DNA of 64,000 nucleotides from Patescibacteria group bacterium (GTDB lineage: Bacteria; Patescibacteriota; JAQUNI01), in the NCBI GenBank assembly GCA_028717685.1, contig JAQUNI010000002.1:71903-135902 (forward strand), in the 5' to 3' direction. Positions 12,381 through 63,213 of the stretch are shown here, piece after piece. Each line of letters begins with the position of its first letter. Positions within the stretch are counted from its first letter, which is position 1. Under the pieces are notes generated by a model, which searched no databases, was not told the origin of the DNA, and saw nothing but the letters and a program-made list of their open reading frames with translations. Made by a program: the position numbers and the translations under genes.

Positions 12381-12514
12381 CCCCGTTAGAAACATGCCCC
12401 GCCCCGTTAGAAAATTTTTTCTAACGGGGCACGCAGCTAGGCTAGCGGTTAATATAGAAATATAGATAACTCGTGCGGTTGGGCTTAATGCCCCGCACGA
12501 GTTTCTAACGGGGT
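12381..12514. repeat. REP-like hairpin repeat cluster (CCCCGTTAGAAA / TTCTAACGGGG) with outward sigma70-like promoter
   Basis: Perfect 13-bp inverted repeat CCCCGTTAGAAAA/TTTTCTAACGGGG, second TTCTAACGGGG at ~12503. Followed by TTGACA-16-TAAAAT. Confidence 0.6.
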
Positions 12515-13145: not shown

Positions 13146-13629
13146 TAAAAGCAGTGTCCACTATTACCCCTTCAAAGTAGCAATCATCAAAGCTCACAAA
13201 GAGCGATCCTCTTTGCGGTGCCTAGAGTGTACCCGAGCAGTTATCCTGCACAATTGGGATAGCAGGTGATTCGCCATGTTAAAGAACTTCGTTCTCTAAC
13301 GGGGTTTGCTGCTTTGGGCAGGTTCGCTAAAAAAGAAGTTTTTTCTTTTTATGAACCTGCCTTTTTATTTTTTAGTTGTGTTCCACACTTTATGTTTTAT
13401 CCACAGTTTTATTTGACAAATATTTTTCTTTTAATTAGACTATTAAAGGTATGAATAACCTCAAGTTTCAAAAATATATCCGCACCATTAAATCCGATTT
13501 TCTGGACCGGCTAGTTTTGTGATGTGAAAACACAAATTAATCGTGAAACTAGCTGGTCTTGAAAAACAAGACCAGTTTTATTTTGTTCATTTTCCGGAAT
13601 AATATAACAAATAGAAAGGAGGAAATGGG

Positions 13630-22781: not shown

Positions 22782-22972
22782 TTTGAGATTATTTTGCTTG
22801 ATTAAATTTTCGTAGGACGACTTAACTTCTCACTTGAGGTCTTTTATTTTGGAGAGACGCAAGATTTTACGTCTCTACTACTTTAGAAATACCACTTTGG
22901 AGAAAACCCTACTTATGTTTGTATTATAACATTATGTGTATAAAAAGGCAATAGTTTTTTAGAAACCTGCCT

Positions 22973-23680
22973 TTACTGCATTTCAAGATAATGTTGAATG
23001 CTTTTGCGGCAGCCGTCAGCTAAGTCAAGTTTTAATGCCTTTTCTGGCAGCACCCATTTAGCTTTGGATAATTCGTTTTTCTCTAATTTCAGTTTGCCCC
23101 TGACAAATTCAAAGAGACAATCATAATAAACAACATGGCTGGGACGGTGAAAATCCGGAGAGTTAATAAGTTCGTTGGAATCAATAATCTTAATTGGTTT
23201 TACTTTAAGACCTGTTTCTTCTTCCGCTTCTCTTTGCGCGCTAGCTAAGAGATTTTCGCCGGGCTCCAAATGGCCGCCGGGGAGAGTCCATTTGTTTGAC
23301 CATTTGGGCGAGCGGGCAATCAGGATTTCGCCCTTTTTATTTTTGATAATTGCCGTATTAACTATTTCTACGCCGCGGGGGAAATGATGATGCGAAGACA
23401 CAAGATTTTGCGTTTTCGCGAGTTCAAATTGAATGATTTGCAGACCATATTTTTTAATTTCTGTTTCTGAATGGAAAGGCAAGCCTTTTGTTTTCAAGAC
23501 ATAGGTCGCGCGTGTTTTAATCTCGCGTCCGGTGTATTTTTGAGTCTTTGGATCCCATTCCGCAAGAAGTAAAATATCGCCTTCTTTGATTTTAAAATCC
23601 GCTAAGCGCAATTCAAATTTTTTTCTGCCGCTCGCGATTTTTTCAAAATACGCTGGCCATGTTTTCTTTTTGATGGTCAT
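22973..23680 (-). CDS. DUF3850/ASCH-like domain fused to NUDIX hydrolase
   Basis: N-terminal YFEKIASGRKKFELRLADFKIKEGDILLL (DUF3850); C-terminal NUDIX box GGHLEPGENLLASAQREAEEETGL. Confidence 0.65.
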   Translation of the reverse strand: MTIKKKTWPAYFEKIASGRKKFELRLADFKIKEGDILLLAEWDPKTQKYTGREIKTRATYVLKTKGLPFHSETEIKKYGLQIIQFELAKTQNLVSSHHHFPRGVEIVNTAIIKNKKGEILIARSPKWSNKWTLPGGHLEPGENLLASAQREAEEETGLKVKPIKIIDSNELINSPDFHRPSHVVYYDCLFEFVRGKLKLEKNELSKAKWVLPEKALKLDLADGCRKSIQHYLEMQ

Positions 23681-23684
23681 AGGA

Positions 23685-24272
23685 TTAAATATATAAATTT
23701 TCTATGTTATTTCTATCCTTTTTCCAGTTCGGGGGATTGTCAATAATATATTCTTGAATTTGTTGCAGGGCGTGTTCATTACGAATAATGTGGTCATAGA
23801 AACGGGATTGTCATTGAAAATGTAGATGATTTTGATATTTGTTAATTTCACGTGTGCAAATTGATTTGTATGAACGAATAATAACCGATAGCGATTGTGG
23901 CTTGGGTGATATCATAGACATTTGGTAATTTTTTGGACGTTGTTTATTCCTATGGTAGAGACGTTGCATTGCAACGTCTCTACGCGGATTATTATAATAA
24001 TTGTGGTTGATTATAATAATCCCATGCATATGGTTCGGCATCACAATATATTCGTCCAAAATCGCAAACGGAAAATGTTTGGGAATTTCTCGCCAATATT
24101 TATCCACAACGATTCCTATTCTGGATAATTGTATTACATTATTAATGACCTGGCCAAAGCATTCTTTCCGCTCTTTTGTGCAAACGGTCACGAAATACGC
24201 TCCTTCCATTGAATAATCATATTCTTGCAGTCTGGCCGATTCTGCGCGGAATTTATCTTGAAATAATACCAT
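23685..24272 (-). pseudogene. REP-associated tyrosine transposase (RAYT, Y1 HuH) interrupted by an in-frame TGA at 23811-23813
   Basis: N-terminal ORF (23811-24272) has YFVTVCTKERKECFG and MPNHMHGIII (HuH). After the TGA the same frame continues QSRFYDHIIRNEHALQQIQEYIIDNPPNW (catalytic-Tyr motif) to a TAA at 23685-23687. The TGA sits where RAYTs have a conserved Trp (WQRxFYDH). Confidence 0.65.
23955..23983. repeat. 29-bp perfect palindrome GTAGAGACGTTGCATTGCAACGTCTCTAC (inside RAYT coding sequence)
   Basis: Read directly; encodes RRDVAMQRLY in the RAYT frame. A near-identical copy is at 25007-25031. Confidence 0.8.
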
Positions 24273-24313
24273 TTATTTGATTAGAATTTGCGTTTCATTT
24301 TCCTGACCGTTTA

Positions 24314-24373
24314 CCTCGTTAGAGAAAACCACAGTCAGTGGAAACCGTTGGAGAACGAAGTTCTCTAATGGGG
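24314..24373. repeat. REP-like hairpin (CCTCGTTAGAGAA ... GTTCTCTAATGGGG) immediately 5' of the RAYT gene
   Basis: Inverted repeat arms with a ~35-nt loop. Same family as 12381-12514, 48417-48493 and 39404-39470. Confidence 0.6.
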
Positions 24374-24374
24374 T

Positions 24375-24992
24375 TTATATTTTCCGCACAAAATAGCAAA
24401 GCCAATTTGTATCTTCTTCTTGATGAATATGGTTTCTTAAAATTTTAAATCCATTCTGTTCTAGAATTTTTTGGAATTCTACTTTAGTGTAAAAAGCGAA
24501 ATACCGTTCAATCCCGCCGTGTTTTTTTTCTTTGATGATGCCCTCGTCAAGATGTCTTTTTTCTTTGAGGGCGATAAATCCTATGCCTTGGGATTTGATA
24601 ATTTTTCTGATGGCGCGGAGGACCTTGGCGACGCGGCGTTTGGGGATATGCAGGAGGGAAGCAGCAGCCCAAAAGCCGTCAAAATGATTCTGGGGAAATT
24701 TCAATTTGTAGAAATTCATCAAAATAAATTTGCCGCTTTTTACGAACTTGCGCGCTTCGTGAAGCAATCCAGAAGAGGCATCAATGCCAATATAATCAAA
24801 TTTGTTCTTTATAAACAGCAATGCATCTTTGCCTGACCCGCATCCAATGTCTATAACCCTTTTCCCCGAAATCAATTTTTGAAAAATTTTAAATTCCCTG
24901 TGCCAAAAAAGCGGGTTATTATAACCGCGGGCGGCATATTCTTTGGCGATTTTATTGTATGTTTTAATTGTTCTTTGACTAGGGTTCAACAT
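24375..24992 (-). CDS. class I SAM-dependent methyltransferase
   Basis: VIDIGCGSGKD (motif I), GIDAS. Start taken at MLNPSQ; the track N-terminal extension reads through the palindrome. Confidence 0.7.
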   Translation of the reverse strand: MLNPSQRTIKTYNKIAKEYAARGYNNPLFWHREFKIFQKLISGKRVIDIGCGSGKDALLFIKNKFDYIGIDASSGLLHEARKFVKSGKFILMNFYKLKFPQNHFDGFWAAASLLHIPKRRVAKVLRAIRKIIKSQGIGFIALKEKRHLDEGIIKEKKHGGIERYFAFYTKVEFQKILEQNGFKILRNHIHQEEDTNWLCYFVRKI

Positions 24993-25006
24993 ATATATTG
25001 CCGCAT

Positions 25007-25031
25007 AGAGACGTTGCATTGCAATGTCTCT
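25007..25031. repeat. second copy of the AGAGACGTTGCATTGCAA(C/T)GTCTCT palindrome
   Basis: One mismatch relative to copy 1. Lies between the methyltransferase start and the CYTH gene stop. Confidence 0.75.
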
Positions 25032-25036
25032 GCCAA

Positions 25037-25603
25037 TCATTTCATTTTTTTTAAAAGCAAAACCGGGTATCCAGTTTTAATCTGTTGTTTTTGCCAATCT
25101 TTGATTCCTAATTTTTGGGTTAAAAAGCGAGCACAACCCGCTCTTGCTATTTTAGCATTTAAAAAATTGCCTTGGGCTTCCACTTCTATGAAAAAGCCGA
25201 GATTTTTGACTTGATCCAAAGCAATTTCGAAATCTTCACATTGCCAATATTCTCTTTGTTTATCAACAGTGACGATTTTTTTGAAATCCAAAAATTTTAG
25301 AATTTTTCTAAGGTTCTCGGGTTGTTTTACTTCTACTTCATATTCTTCAGCATAATCTTGGGCGCTATCTTTGCGGCAGACAATAGATTTGTCGTATTCA
25401 AAAATCGCGCTGTCGGGATTTTGCCTTACGCGGAGCCATTCAATGGGACAGGGTTTGCGCGCGAAAAAATCGCGGTGGCAGGGGACATAATATTCATCAA
25501 TTTGGCGCAGAGATTTTTTTAGACTGCCTCCAAGAGTCCTTAATTTTTTGCGCGCCATCTCCAGATTGTCAAATTGAATTTTGATTTCCACTTCAATATT
25601 CAT
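25037..25603 (-). CDS. CYTH-domain protein (CyaB-like class IV adenylate cyclase / triphosphate tunnel metalloenzyme)
   Basis: Starts NIEVEIKIQF (EXEXK signature). ~188 aa. Start taken at the internal Met. Confidence 0.55.
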   Translation of the reverse strand: MNIEVEIKIQFDNLEMARKKLRTLGGSLKKSLRQIDEYYVPCHRDFFARKPCPIEWLRVRQNPDSAIFEYDKSIVCRKDSAQDYAEEYEVEVKQPENLRKILKFLDFKKIVTVDKQREYWQCEDFEIALDQVKNLGFFIEVEAQGNFLNAKIARAGCARFLTQKLGIKDWQKQQIKTGYPVLLLKKMK

Positions 25604-25724
25604 ATGGATTATTATAACAAAAATCATAAAAAAGTGCGATTTTGCAATATTGGCAATGCAGTATATAATAAGAACATCAGACTAGAATTTGTAATGGAAT
25701 AAACTTTCTCTAATGAGGTAAAAT

Positions 25725-48416: not shown

Positions 48417-48493
48417 CCCCTTTAGAGAACTTTGTTTTCTAACGGTTCTCTCGGCTTATATTCTGCCTGCCGTCAAGCAGGTCTCTAACGGGG
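48417..48493. repeat. REP-like hairpin (CCCCTTTAGAGAAC ... GTCTCTAACGGGG)
   Basis: Same arms as 24314-24373 and 12381-12514. Sits between rplV and rpsC. Confidence 0.6.
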
Positions 48494-62343: not shown

Positions 62344-63213
62344 ATGTTAGCCAGACTTAGAGATTTAATTGAAAAAGCGCGGGAGGAGGTTTATGCCTTA
62401 GGTGCGTTTAATACCTGCAATTTGGAGATGACCCAAGGGATTATTCGCGCCGCCTCTAGTATGAAATCTCCCCTTGTGGTTCAGGTTTCTGAAACGACCA
62501 TTAGCTACGCAGGCTTGAAGGCAATTACGCGGATTGTGCGGAGCGTAGTGGAAACGGAGGGGAAGGATGCGCCTATTGCTTTACACCTTGACCATGGTCG
62601 GAGTTTTCGCTCCATCGTGGAATGTATTAAAGCGGGCTTTTCCTCCGTGCAAATTGACGCGGCGGATTTAAGCTTTGAAGAGAATGTGGCTCTCACCCGT
62701 CAGGTGGTGGAATTCGCCCATTCCAAGGATATTTTCGTGCAGGGTGAACTGGGCACTATCCCGGGATTACACGGACAATCAAAGAATAATCATAAGAACC
62801 ATGCTATCGAATATACTGATCCCCTGCAGGCGAAGGAATATGTGCAACGGACAGATATAGATTCTTTGGCTGTTTCCGTGGGCACTTCTCATGGTCTCTA
62901 CCGCACGGAGATCAGATTTGATATTTTGGACGAAATCAGGAGCTTAGTGGATATTCCTTTAGTTTTGCATGGCGCTTCCGGAGAAACGCGTCAAGATGTC
63001 AGGAAGGCAATTCAAAGCGGCGTGAATAATATTAATATTGATACAGAACTTCGTTTTGCTTTCATTAAAGCTTTAAAGGATTTTTTCTTAAAGGATAAAG
63101 AGGAAATTGATCCTCGGAAAGTTCTCGCTTGTGGTCGTGATGCTGTCCAGAAAGTAGTAGAAGAGAAATTGGATTTAGTTGGCAGTGTGGGTCAGGCTCG
63201 TTTAATAGTTTAA
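62344..63213 (+). CDS. fba: class II fructose-bisphosphate aldolase
   Basis: ALGAFN, LHLDHG, LHGASG. Confidence 0.85.
   Translation: MLARLRDLIEKAREEVYALGAFNTCNLEMTQGIIRAASSMKSPLVVQVSETTISYAGLKAITRIVRSVVETEGKDAPIALHLDHGRSFRSIVECIKAGFSSVQIDAADLSFEENVALTRQVVEFAHSKDIFVQGELGTIPGLHGQSKNNHKNHAIEYTDPLQAKEYVQRTDIDSLAVSVGTSHGLYRTEIRFDILDEIRSLVDIPLVLHGASGETRQDVRKAIQSGVNNINIDTELRFAFIKALKDFFLKDKEEIDPRKVLACGRDAVQKVVEEKLDLVGSVGQARLIV

What the first reader, a model, noticed from the sequence alone, without database searches (positions are those of the whole stretch)
23955..25031. Two copies of a 29-bp perfect palindrome bracket a 1.05-kb segment carrying the RAYT 5' two-thirds and a SAM methyltransferase; one copy lies in-frame inside the RAYT gene
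GTAGAGACGTTGCATTGCAACGTCTCTAC (23955-23983) lies within the RAYT reading frame and encodes RRDVAMQRLY. The loop between the HuH and the SVIIRSYKS block is ~10 aa longer here than in canonical RAYTs, which is about the size of a hairpin insertion. A second copy (25007-25031, 1 mismatch) sits just upstream of the methyltransferase start, in the gap before the CYTH gene. Y1/HuH transposases act on exactly this kind of DNA hairpin. A REP inserted into its own transposase gene, or a hairpin-bounded cassette, would be unusual.
Basis: seen in the sequence. Interest (0 to 1): 0.55.

Follow-up and report, generated by a model that had tools for sequence, protein, structure and literature searches.

The report
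REP hairpin inside its own transposase
A 29-bp palindrome lying in frame inside a now broken REP-associated transposase (RAYT) gene is that enzyme family's own target hairpin; this arrangement is already documented as typical of the subclass, so the locus is an ordinary, decaying example and not a new mobile cassette.

Summary
Positions 23955-23983 are GTAGAGACGTTGCA-T-TGCAACGTCTCTAC, with perfect 14-nt arms, in frame inside a minus-strand RAYT gene. A degenerate copy lies at 25005-25033, between the CYTH stop and the methyltransferase start.

The element is a "double-foot" GTAG REP. The gene belongs to TnpAREP subclass 2.4 (Bertels RAYT group 4). Quentin et al. 2018 (PMC6006769) already reported in-frame REP insertions between the HuH and Tyr motifs as a predominant feature of this subclass.

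- **Family census:** 60 of 80 homologous genome loci carry a palindrome at the same loop. It is read in either of the two stop-free frames. Ten of 14 stem pairs covary, and REP conservation far exceeds that of synonymous sites.
- **Dispersal:** the exact palindrome is dispersed in metagenomes, with 135 copies retrieved and only 12 of them inside RAYTs.
- **Cassette idea refuted:** a ~92%-identical Doudnabacteria contig (L216) has the same CYTH-MTase-NUDIX synteny and the orthologous upstream REP but no RAYT. The variable unit is 23701-24372, and neither palindrome bounds it.
- **Decay here:** the RAYT has a TGG-to-TGA nonsense codon at the invariant Trp (23811-23813). Copy 2 has lost both GTAG feet, and two further REP remnants lie nearby.

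The locus is a new member of a known kind. Why the internal REP is maintained remains open.

The parts
23955..23983 (.). Intragenic double-foot REP (GTAG...CTAC, 14-nt arms, 1-nt centre), in frame in the RAYT gene; encodes RRDVAMQRLY on the minus strand
   Evidence: Identical in the related contig L081. Homologues carry 28/29-nt GTAG palindromes at the same loop.
23685..24272 (-). RAYT / TnpAREP subclass 2.4 gene, 195 codons plus stop; a pseudogene in this genome
   Evidence: Pfam Y1_Tnp 28.4 bits against a cut-off of 23. NCBIfam REP_Tyr_transpos 62 bits, below its cut-off of 80. 1477 homologues of about 190 aa. Motifs NHMH, (W)Q and YIIDNP.
23811..23813 (-). In-frame TGA replacing the invariant Trp of the WQxRFYDH motif; truncates the protein before the catalytic Tyr (Y175)
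   Evidence: W154 is nearly invariant (>=90%, listed next to invariant Q155) in the alignment of 41 sequences. L081 has TGG at this position. The TGA is present in the 100%-identical contigs L088 and L089 from two other sequencing runs. TGA is a normal stop in this genome, ending 10 of 41 long ORFs.
25005..25033 (.). Degenerate REP copy in the CYTH-methyltransferase spacer; both feet mutated (ATAG on the plus strand, GCAG on the minus strand); 11 of 14 arm pairs
   Evidence: -8.9 / -7.4 kcal/mol. An orthologous REP is present in the RAYT-less contig L216.
22851..22878 (-). Degenerate REP of a sister subfamily (GTAGAGACGTAAAATCTTGCGTCTCTCC) in the NUDIX-RRM spacer
   Evidence: The orthologue in L216 is GTAGAGACGTAAAATTTTGCGTCTCTGG.
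22963..22976 (-). Left-arm remnant of a REP at the NUDIX 3' end (GTAAAGGCAGGTTT); the right arm is deleted here
   Evidence: The alignment with L081, which has the full GTAGAGACAGATTTTAAACCTGTCTCTAC, shows a 19-nt deletion in the window. L216 also has the full hairpin.
23701..24372 (-). 672-nt presence/absence unit (RAYT gene plus 100 nt upstream), absent from the ~92%-identical contig L216
   Evidence: blastn of the window against L216 and boundary sequences. The boundary is approximate: the last ~16 nt of the RAYT ORF (23685-23700) fall in the stretch that BLAST aligns to L216, so the exact right edge is uncertain.
24311..24373 (.). Copy of a second, lineage-specific palindromic repeat (inverted ends CCCCGTTAGAGAA / TTCTCTAACGGGG) at the upstream edge of the RAYT unit
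   Evidence: Its fold is only weakly better than shuffles (z -1.6).
24375..24992 (-). Class I SAM methyltransferase, a conserved neighbour and not part of the REP/RAYT system; the true start is probably MLNPSQ
   Evidence: Pfam. Homologues are 200-208 aa and start at the equivalent position. The same CYTH-MTase-NUDIX synteny occurs without a RAYT.
25037..25603 (-). CYTH-domain protein, a conserved neighbour
   Evidence: Pfam CYTH 59 bits. Called as 188 aa in Logan contigs. Syntenic in L216.

Best explanation
**Identity.** The 29-bp palindrome is a double-foot GTAG REP, with 5' GTAG on either strand. It is the cognate single-strand DNA hairpin of a subclass 2.4 TnpAREP, an HuH/Tyr single-strand nuclease-ligase also called RAYT group 4.

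**Position in the gene.** The copy at 23955-23983 is the family-typical intragenic REP. It sits in the variable loop that follows the HuH strand, predicted to be a disordered surface coil. It is read through in one of the two frames that avoid the TAG stop.

**History.** The REP is inherited with the gene within clades. It is kept as a near-perfect hairpin far beyond neutral expectation.

**Copy 2.** The copy at 25005-25033 is an independent, older dispersed REP at a gene boundary. It is conserved at the orthologous site in a relative that lacks the RAYT. The two copies do not delimit a mobile unit.

**State in this genome.** The system is decaying. The RAYT carries a nonsense codon at the invariant Trp, upstream of the catalytic Tyr. 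Copy 2 has lost both GTAG feet, and two neighbouring REPs are degenerate or half-deleted.

**Shown versus inferred.** Shown here: identity, position, frames, covariation, dispersal, synteny and the nonsense codon. Inferred: that the enzyme binds or cleaves this hairpin (by homology with E. coli TnpAREP), and why the internal copy is retained.

**Preferred reading of retention.** The internal copy stays a functional RAYT-binding hairpin that is physically linked to its enzyme. It could act as a self-regulatory site or as a protected source copy. It is less likely to be a merely tolerated passenger.
For: - **Palindrome and frame:**
- **Family assignment:** Pfam Y1_Tnp; homologues named RayT; match to PDB 4ER8 TnpAREP over the HuH and WQxRF..YIxxNP regions.
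[quoted passage not shown] The window gene has 195 codons with NHMH, (W)Q, YIIDNP and a GTAG...CTAC REP after the HuH motif.
- **Publication:** PMC6006769 states that REP insertions within tnpAREP genes, in frame between HuH and Y, predominate in subclass 2.4.
- **Census of 80 genome loci:** 60 have a palindrome with arms of at least 9 nt in the loop. 36 have an intact GTRG...CYAC element, of length 28 (23 loci) or 29 (12 loci). The phase is 0 in 25 loci and 1 in 11, and never 2, which would create a TAG stop.
- **Peptide census:** 50 homologues read the RDxA frame and 39 the VETx frame.
- **Covariation:** 10 of 14 stem pairs show double changes, the GTAG foot is essentially invariant (one GTGG among 30), and 0 of 500 shuffles reach the observed score.
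- **Frame is clade-specific**.
- **Conservation beyond neutral:** pairs with identical 28-mers have only 52-63% core amino-acid identity and 22-46% identity at four-fold sites.
- **Structure model:** the AlphaFold model of the 95%-identical P0001 has a core pLDDT above 90, while the REP-encoded residues 76-85 are coil at pLDDT about 50-58.
- **Dispersal:** 135 exact copies in 123 metagenome or viral stretches; 12 lie inside RAYT loops and 83 have no RAYT nearby.
- **No cassette:** L216 synteny without a RAYT but with orthologous REPs.
- **Decay:** TGA here against TGG in L081; feet of copy 2; REP remnants.
Against: - No biochemical evidence exists for this enzyme or this hairpin.
- The NCBIfam REP_Tyr_transpos score (62) is below the curated cut-off of 80.
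- Only 2 copies plus 2 remnants occur in 64 kb, so high copy number in this genome is not shown.
- The 36 elements used for covariation were selected for complementarity (at most 3 arm mismatches). The 98% pairing figure is therefore partly built in.
- Some close homologues have a decayed REP yet an intact ORF (P0043 and P0112 against P0032). Several relatives have short loops with no palindrome. The internal REP is therefore dispensable for the protein.
- Conservation could come from gene conversion with dispersed copies and not from a function of the internal copy itself.
Confidence: 0.88

Rival explanations
1. Hairpin-bounded mobile cassette. The two palindromes would be the left and right ends of a 1.05-kb unit (RAYT 5' part plus methyltransferase), moved in the manner of IS200/IS605 elements.
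For: Two related hairpins lie 1.02 kb apart. Y1 transposases use subterminal hairpins (PMC6006769).
Against: - L216, ~92% identical, has CYTH-MTase-NUDIX and the orthologous upstream REP but no RAYT. The unit that differs is 23701-24372 and has other ends.
- The methyltransferase is a conserved neighbour in RAYT-less genomes.
- Such a cassette would split the transposase gene.
- Copy 2 lacks GTAG on both strands.
- Further REP remnants lie outside the bracket.
- Homologous RAYTs carry the internal REP irrespective of their neighbours.
Confidence: 0.02
2. Recent, accidental insertion of a mobile REP into this particular RAYT gene, tolerated because it landed in a loop. This is a one-off event and not an inherited family feature.
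For: - REPs do land inside genes: 18 of the 30 deep-intragenic exact copies in the metagenome sample are in genes other than RAYTs; see also PMC3733652.
- Relatives with short, palindrome-free loops exist.
- The internal copy is still perfect.
Against: - The same element sits at the same loop in P0001 (95% identity), P0002 (65%) and most homologues across phyla.
- The frame is shared by 56 of 57 pairs at 70% or higher identity.
- 12 of 107 evaluable exact copies lie in this one loop of one small gene family. That is far more than random landing would give.
Confidence: 0.05
3. The conserved object is the peptide (RRDVAMQRLY), a functional protein motif. The DNA palindrome would be a by-product.
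For: The REP-encoded stretch is the only conserved part of the loop in the protein alignment (consensus xRDxAxxRLY).
Against: - Homologues read the same DNA in two different frames. This gives unrelated peptides (VETLHCNVST against RRDVAMQRLY) and hybrids such as GRDVACNVST and VETLHATSLH.
- The stem covaries.
- The same palindrome is mostly extragenic elsewhere.
- The region is predicted to be a low-confidence coil.
Confidence: 0.02
4. Purely neutral passenger. The internal REP has no role and persists only because dispersed REPs keep overwriting it by gene conversion or re-insertion, and the loop tolerates anything without a stop codon.
For: - Quentin et al. consider the insertions likely to have little impact on activity.
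- Decayed internal REPs occur in intact close homologues.
- Loop lengths are highly variable, and tandem half-REP duplications are seen.
- Internal and flanking REPs share exact 12-nt cores in about 11 loci and in L082.
Against: - Conservation of the internal copy is extreme: 28 of 28 identical at saturated synonymous divergence.
- The length is fixed at 28 or 29 nt.
- The frame is clade-stable.
- The occupancy is very high for one loop.
None of these points excludes conversion-driven maintenance.
Confidence: 0.35

Closest known systems
TnpAREP subclass 2.4 with intragenic double-foot REPs (Quentin, Siguier, Chandler, Fichant 2018, BMC Genomics 19:475, PMC6006769); equals RAYT group 4 of Bertels et al. 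2017 (PMC5581495)
   Same: - Protein length about 194 aa, with NHxH, WQ and YIxxNP motifs.
- A variable insertion after the HuH strand.
- A REP with 5' GTAG and 3' CTAC (double foot).
- The REP inserted in frame between HuH and Tyr.
- Scattered phylum distribution (my loci).
   Different: - The host is a Patescibacteria (Doudnabacteria-like) MAG. This phylum is not named in the paper.
- The gene is a pseudogene here.
- Flanking REPs are degenerate and do not immediately abut the gene.
- HuH is NHMH (M instead of I/F/V), and the Tyr motif is YIIDNP.
E. coli TnpAREP with REP/BIME (PDB 4ER8; Messing et al. 2012, PMC3479197; Ton-Hoang et al. 2012; Corneloup et al. 2021, PMC8266576)
   Same: HuH/Tyr core, the WQxRF region implicated in GTAG recognition, and a GTAG-footed hairpin substrate.
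   Different: - It belongs to a different subclass (2.2).
- Its REPs are single-foot with bulged stems, extragenic and in hundreds of copies.
- It has no REP inside the gene.
- The window protein has about 40 extra residues between HuH and the next helix.
IS200/IS605 TnpA elements (IS608, ISDra2)
   Same: Y1 HuH enzyme acting on subterminal ssDNA hairpins with a guide tetranucleotide.
   Different: In those elements the hairpins bound the mobile unit and the gene lies between them. Here the palindromes do not coincide with the only presence/absence boundaries seen.
In-frame palindromic insertions in ordinary genes: intragenic GTAG/CGTC REPs (Di Nocera et al. 2013, PMC3733652) and Rickettsia palindromic elements cited there
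   Same: Short palindromic repeats tolerated in frame inside coding regions. REP termini supply stop codons to neighbouring ORFs; here the NUDIX stop lies in a REP foot.
   Different: Those insertions are scattered over unrelated genes. Here one loop of the cognate enzyme's own gene is occupied in most family members.

Membership tests
TnpAREP subclass 2.4 / RAYT group 4 | Y1/HuH core detectable by profile (PF01797 or a TnpAREP profile) | tested here: met
   PF01797 scores 28.4 bits against a cut-off of 23. phmmer hits 4ER8 TnpAREP over both half-domains. Note that NCBIfam REP_Tyr_transpos scores 62, below its equivalog cut-off of 80.
TnpAREP subclass 2.4 / RAYT group 4 | Key motifs HuH = NH[IFV]H, W = WQ, Y = YIxNNP; median length 194 aa (Table 1 of PMC6006769) | tested here: inconclusive
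   The gene has 195 codons. HuH is NHMH, a conservative departure. The Tyr motif is YIIDNP, with D in place of N. The WQ Trp codon is TGA in the window but TGG in L081. The pattern fits; the exact consensus is not matched at two positions.
TnpAREP subclass 2.4 / RAYT group 4 | Variable-length insertion between beta3 (HuH) and alphaC that carries a REP in frame | tested here: met
TnpAREP subclass 2.4 / RAYT group 4 | Clusters with group 4 / subclass 2.4 reference sequences in a phylogeny | not tested
   The reference sequences of the papers were not available to the tools. The assignment rests on motifs, length, REP type and the taxa of homologues.
GTAG-type REP (double-foot variant) | 5' GT[AG]G tetranucleotide at the foot of a stem-loop, and its complement C[TC]AC at the 3' end | tested here: met
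   Copy 1 is GTAG...CTAC. Copy 2 is ATAG...CTGC, so both feet are lost there. The foot is essentially invariant in the 30 family elements (one GTGG).
GTAG-type REP (double-foot variant) | Repeated and dispersed, mostly extragenic, in the host genome | tested here: inconclusive
   Only 2 copies plus 2 remnants occur in 64 kb. The exact sequence is dispersed across metagenomes: 135 copies, of which 44 are intergenic-like and 33 at ORF ends. The rest of the source genome could not be scanned.
GTAG-type REP (double-foot variant) | Bound and cleaved as ssDNA by the cognate RAYT | not testable with these tools
   Inferred from E. coli TnpAREP work (PMC3479197, PMC8266576).
IS200/IS605-like hairpin-bounded transposon (cassette reading) | Hairpins at both ends of a unit that is present or absent as a whole between genomes | tested here: not met
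   L216 lacks 23701-24372 only and retains the upstream REP.

The most novel reading that the evidence does not exclude
The REP inside subclass 2.4 RAYT genes would be a selected cis-element of the system, not a tolerated passenger. It could be a binding site through which the enzyme senses or limits its own gene or mRNA. It could also be a protected master copy that keeps enzyme and substrate genetically linked.

This would explain several features:
- It occupies one loop in most members across phyla.
- It keeps a fixed length of 28 or 29 nt.
- It covaries.
- It stays identical where synonymous sites are saturated.

The published description notes the insertions but proposes no role.
Probability: 0.3. 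Interest if true: 0.6.

Novelty: new member of a known kind. Interest (0 to 1): 0.27.

Why it matters
**For this window.** It matters little. The locus is a degraded example of a documented arrangement. Its practical lessons concern annotation and assembly.
- Gene callers extend the methyltransferase ORF into the REP.
- The RAYT is a pseudogene.
- Short-read contigs break at the palindrome.

**For the family.** How REPs and RAYTs stay matched over long times is still open, as is what domesticated RAYTs do. A substrate copy embedded in the enzyme's own gene offers a direct experimental handle on that question. This copy is inherited with the gene and conserved far beyond neutral expectation.

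The trio of window, L081 and L216 gives a natural series within one conserved neighbourhood: nonsense allele, intact allele, and no RAYT.

Tried and rejected
- **First regex census.** The first loop extraction missed about half of the loci. It was replaced by tblastn anchoring of the two half-domains.
- **Structure prediction on alignment A1.** I used P0001, 95% identical, instead.
- **Conserved flanking tetranucleotide or target site.** Around 135 exact copies there is only a weak T/C preference at position -1 and no motif.
- **Whether the 9 nt of L216 (TTACACATC) are a remnant of the 672-nt unit, or mark a TTAC-type IS608 target.** The 9-mer is not found in the unit, and the window junction lacks TTAC. 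BLAST aligns the last ~20 nt of the RAYT ORF region with the L216 spacer at 15 of 20 positions. I judged this too weak, in AT-rich sequence, to decide between insertion and deletion. The direction of the RAYT gain or loss stays unresolved.
- **Fourth GTAGAGAC hit at 62894.** It is not part of a palindrome and was dismissed as chance.
- **Recoding of TGA.** Rejected, because TGA ends 10 of 41 long ORFs, including the neighbouring CYTH gene.
- **Rfam.** No family matches either repeat.
- **Viral contigs.** Only 3 stretches carry the palindrome and none has a RAYT. They were not pursued.
- **The AT-rich inverted repeat next to the REP (GGATTATTATAAT...ATTATAATAATCC).** I considered it a possible second structure. 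It is probably a composition effect, because ATT (Ile) and AAT (Asn) codons are reverse complements.
Full report
**1. The observation**

- Positions 23955-23983 read GTAGAGACGTTGCA-T-TGCAACGTCTCTAC. The arms are 14 nt and perfectly complementary, around one central base.
- No match appeared in 100 dinucleotide-preserving shuffles.
- It is one of only two perfect 14-nt hairpin-type inverted repeats in the window.
- As single-stranded DNA either strand folds at about -14 kcal/mol, z about -7.8.
- The second copy, 25005-25033 (ATAGAGACGTTGCATTGCAATGTCTCTGC), has 3 differences over 29 nt. It folds less well, at -8.9 / -7.4 kcal/mol.
- A half-site search finds no other copy of this palindrome in the 64 kb.

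**2. Gene context**

All genes here are on the minus strand.

| Gene | Coordinates |
|---|---|
| NUDIX/DUF3850 | 22973-23680 |
| Y1_Tnp/RAYT | 23685-24272 |
| Class I SAM methyltransferase | 24375-24992 |
| CYTH | 25037-25603 |

- The first palindrome is in frame in the RAYT gene and encodes RRDVAMQRLY.
- The second lies in the 44-nt CYTH-methyltransferase spacer.
- Gene callers run the methyltransferase ORF into it, giving 221 aa in Logan and 214 aa in NCBI. Homologues are 200-208 aa and start at the position of MLNPSQ.

**3. The RAYT is broken**

- Translation shows an in-frame TGA at 23811-23813.
- It falls exactly at the Trp of WQSRFYDH, which is nearly invariant (at least 90%) in 41 aligned sequences.
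- It lies upstream of the conserved Tyr (Y175).
- The related contig L081 is about 90% identical overall and 95% identical at the protein level. It has TGG at this position.
- The TGA is present in the 100%-identical contigs L088 and L089, assembled from two other sequencing runs.
- TGA is an ordinary stop in this genome, ending 10 of 41 long ORFs.
- This is therefore a recent nonsense mutation and not recoding.

**4. The palindrome is conserved as DNA, not as peptide**

- 1477 homologues were found, mostly 180-220 aa and often named RayT.
- At the same loop after the HuH motif they show RRDVA(L/M)QRLY, CRDEALPRLY, GRDVACNVST, VETL(H/Q)CNVST, VETRHCLVST or VETLHATSLH. These are readings of one palindrome type in different frames.
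- I fetched 80 genome loci from Patescibacteria, Bacteroidota, Cyanobacteria, Chlorobiota, Ignavibacteria, Planctomycetota, Chloroflexota, Proteobacteria and others.
- 60 of them have a palindrome with arms of at least 9 nt in that loop.
- 36 have an intact GTRG...CYAC element. Its length is 28 nt in 23 loci and 29 nt in 12.
- The G of GTAG is in codon phase 0 in 25 loci and phase 1 in 11. It is never in phase 2, which would create a TAG stop.
- Among the 120 best protein hits, 50 read the RDxA frame and 39 the VETx frame.
- Loci without a palindrome tend to have much shorter loops.

**5. Structure and constraint**

- On 30 distinct elements, 10 of 14 stem pairs show compensatory double changes. 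The GTAG foot is essentially invariant (one element reads GTGG). No shuffle or slid register approaches the observed score.
- One caveat applies: the elements were chosen for having at most 3 arm mismatches, so the 98% pairing is partly by construction. The diversity of stems is not.
- The frame is clade-specific. It is the same in 56 of 57 pairs at 70% or higher core identity, but in only 24% of pairs at 40-49% identity. The REP is therefore inherited with the gene and not frequently re-inserted.
- Eight locus pairs have 28 of 28 identical REPs. Their core amino-acid identity is only 52-63%, and their identity at four-fold sites is 22-46%.
- Over all pairs, REP identity averages 72% against 31% at four-fold sites.
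- The AlphaFold model of P0001 is confident in the core (pLDDT above 90). It places the REP-encoded residues 76-85 in a coil of pLDDT about 50-58.

**6. Dispersal**

Viral contigs gave 3 more.
- Of the 135 copies, 12 lie inside RAYT loops, about 13 lie next to a RAYT or a half-RAYT, and 83 have no RAYT in the stretch.
- Of 107 evaluable copies, 44 are intergenic-like, 33 lie within 40 codons of an ORF end and 30 lie deep in ORFs.
- No flanking motif emerges.
- This is REP behaviour, with a striking excess in one loop of one small gene family.

**7. The cassette idea fails**

- The methyltransferase homologue P0122 lies on a Candidatus Doudnabacteria contig, L216 (GCA_041644975.1). L216 is about 92% identical to the window in DNA.
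- L216 has the same order, ABC transporter-CYTH-MTase-NUDIX-RRM-Cu-ATPase, but no RAYT. MTase and NUDIX are 18 nt apart there.
- The window's extra DNA is 23701-24372, that is the RAYT plus 100 nt upstream. This unit is not bounded by either palindrome.
- L216 keeps REPs at three orthologous sites.
  - In the CYTH-MTase spacer it has GTAGAGACGTTATATTACAACGTCTCTAT.
  - At the NUDIX 3' end it has GTAGAGACAGGTTTTAAACCTGTCTCTA. This one is half-deleted in the window at 22963-22976.
  - In the NUDIX-RRM spacer it has a REP whose counterpart in the window, at 22851-22878, is degenerate.
- Copy 2 therefore predates the split of these genomes and is independent of the RAYT.
- Whether the RAYT was gained or lost could not be decided.

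**8. Comparison with the literature**

- Quentin et al. 2018 (PMC6006769) define TnpAREP subclass 2.4, which equals Bertels group 4.
[quoted passage not shown] It suggests they have little effect on activity.
- Bertels et al. 2017 describe group 4 as rare in Proteobacteria and common in Cyanobacteria, Chlorobia and Caldilineae. They report only modestly repeated flanking 16-mers.
- Di Nocera et al. 2013 describe GTAG REPs, intragenic REPs and REP feet that supply stop codons.
- The window locus fits subclass 2.4 on every feature I could test. The exceptions are two conservative motif departures and the nonsense codon.

**9. Verdict**

- The reading 'REP inside its own transposase gene' is right but already described.
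- The cassette reading is refuted.
- This copy is a decaying member of the kind.
- The analysis goes beyond the published description on five points:
  - use of two frames, with the TAG phase excluded;
  - the fixed length of 28 or 29 nt;
  - stem covariation;
  - clade-stable frames;
  - conservation beyond synonymous saturation.
- Together these argue that the internal hairpin is actively maintained. Whether this is by selection on a cis role or by conversion from dispersed copies remains open.

Noticed in passing
window 12381-12513, 13283-13305, 24311-24373, 25706-25718, 48417-48493; L216 5271-5299 and 6254-6367: A second, lineage-specific palindromic repeat family (core ACCCCGTTAGAGAAC-TTC-GTTCTCTAACGGGGT). 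The inverted end has 11 hits in the window against 1.4 expected. All window copies are intergenic. In L216 a 114-nt copy is inserted in frame inside the methyltransferase gene, adding 38 aa. The family is absent from the other 215 fetched loci and matches no Rfam family.
   Followed up: partly
window 23811-23813: The RAYT carries TGA where the related contig L081 has TGG, at a nearly invariant (>=90%) Trp. The gene is a pseudogene here, although the ORF is otherwise intact.
   Followed up: yes
window 23955-23983; L088-L092: Five independent Logan short-read contigs from three sequencing runs are 100% identical to the window. All end or begin exactly at the 29-bp palindrome, and each contains it. 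This could be an assembly-graph break at a repeat or hairpin, or real heterogeneity at the site.
   Followed up: partly
window 23701-24372 against L216 6733-6750: There is a RAYT presence/absence difference between genomes about 92% identical in DNA, within an otherwise collinear block. 672 nt in the window correspond to about 9 nt in L216. The direction (gain or loss) is unresolved.
   Followed up: partly
window 24993-25040: Prodigal-type and PGAP gene calls extend the methyltransferase N-terminus into the REP (MIGRDIAMQRLYAAIY... and MQRLYAAIY...). Homologues start at the MLNPSQ position. This is an annotation artefact typical of REPs, which are open in two frames.
   Followed up: yes
window 22963-22976; L081 1320-1350; L216 7459-7489: A REP abuts or overlaps the NUDIX stop codon. 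In L216 and L081 a TAG just before the GTAG foot ends the ORF. In the window the right arm is deleted (19 nt), the ORF ends 14 codons earlier than in L081 (235 vs 249 aa) and the stop is a TAA inside the mutated foot.
   Followed up: partly
window 23986-24022 (minus-strand sense GGATTATTATAATCAACCACAATTATTATAATAATCC); L082 1580-1603: An AT-rich inverted repeat (13-14-nt arms) lies immediately upstream of the internal REP and spans the GIIIINHNYYNN codons. A similar repeat occurs in the 65%-identical Torokbacteria homologue. It may only reflect that Ile (ATT) and Asn (AAT) codons are reverse complements.
   Followed up: no
L082 873-901, 1223-1251, 1629-1657 (also L087); P0002; L009; L027: The Torokbacteria homologue has two more copies of the same 29-mer within 440 nt upstream of its RAYT, in addition to the internal one. 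Several homologues show tandem duplications of half-REPs within the loop (for example HRDVAVRRDVAVQRLY and GRDVAADDGRDVAADDGRDVACNVPT). This suggests slippage or repeated processing at the hairpin.
   Followed up: partly
L041, L070, L023, L051 (loop of the RAYT gene): In some homologues the palindrome extends well beyond the GTAG feet, with 20-28-nt arms and lineage-specific sequence. Part of the flanking coding sequence is therefore itself inverted-repeated.
   Followed up: no
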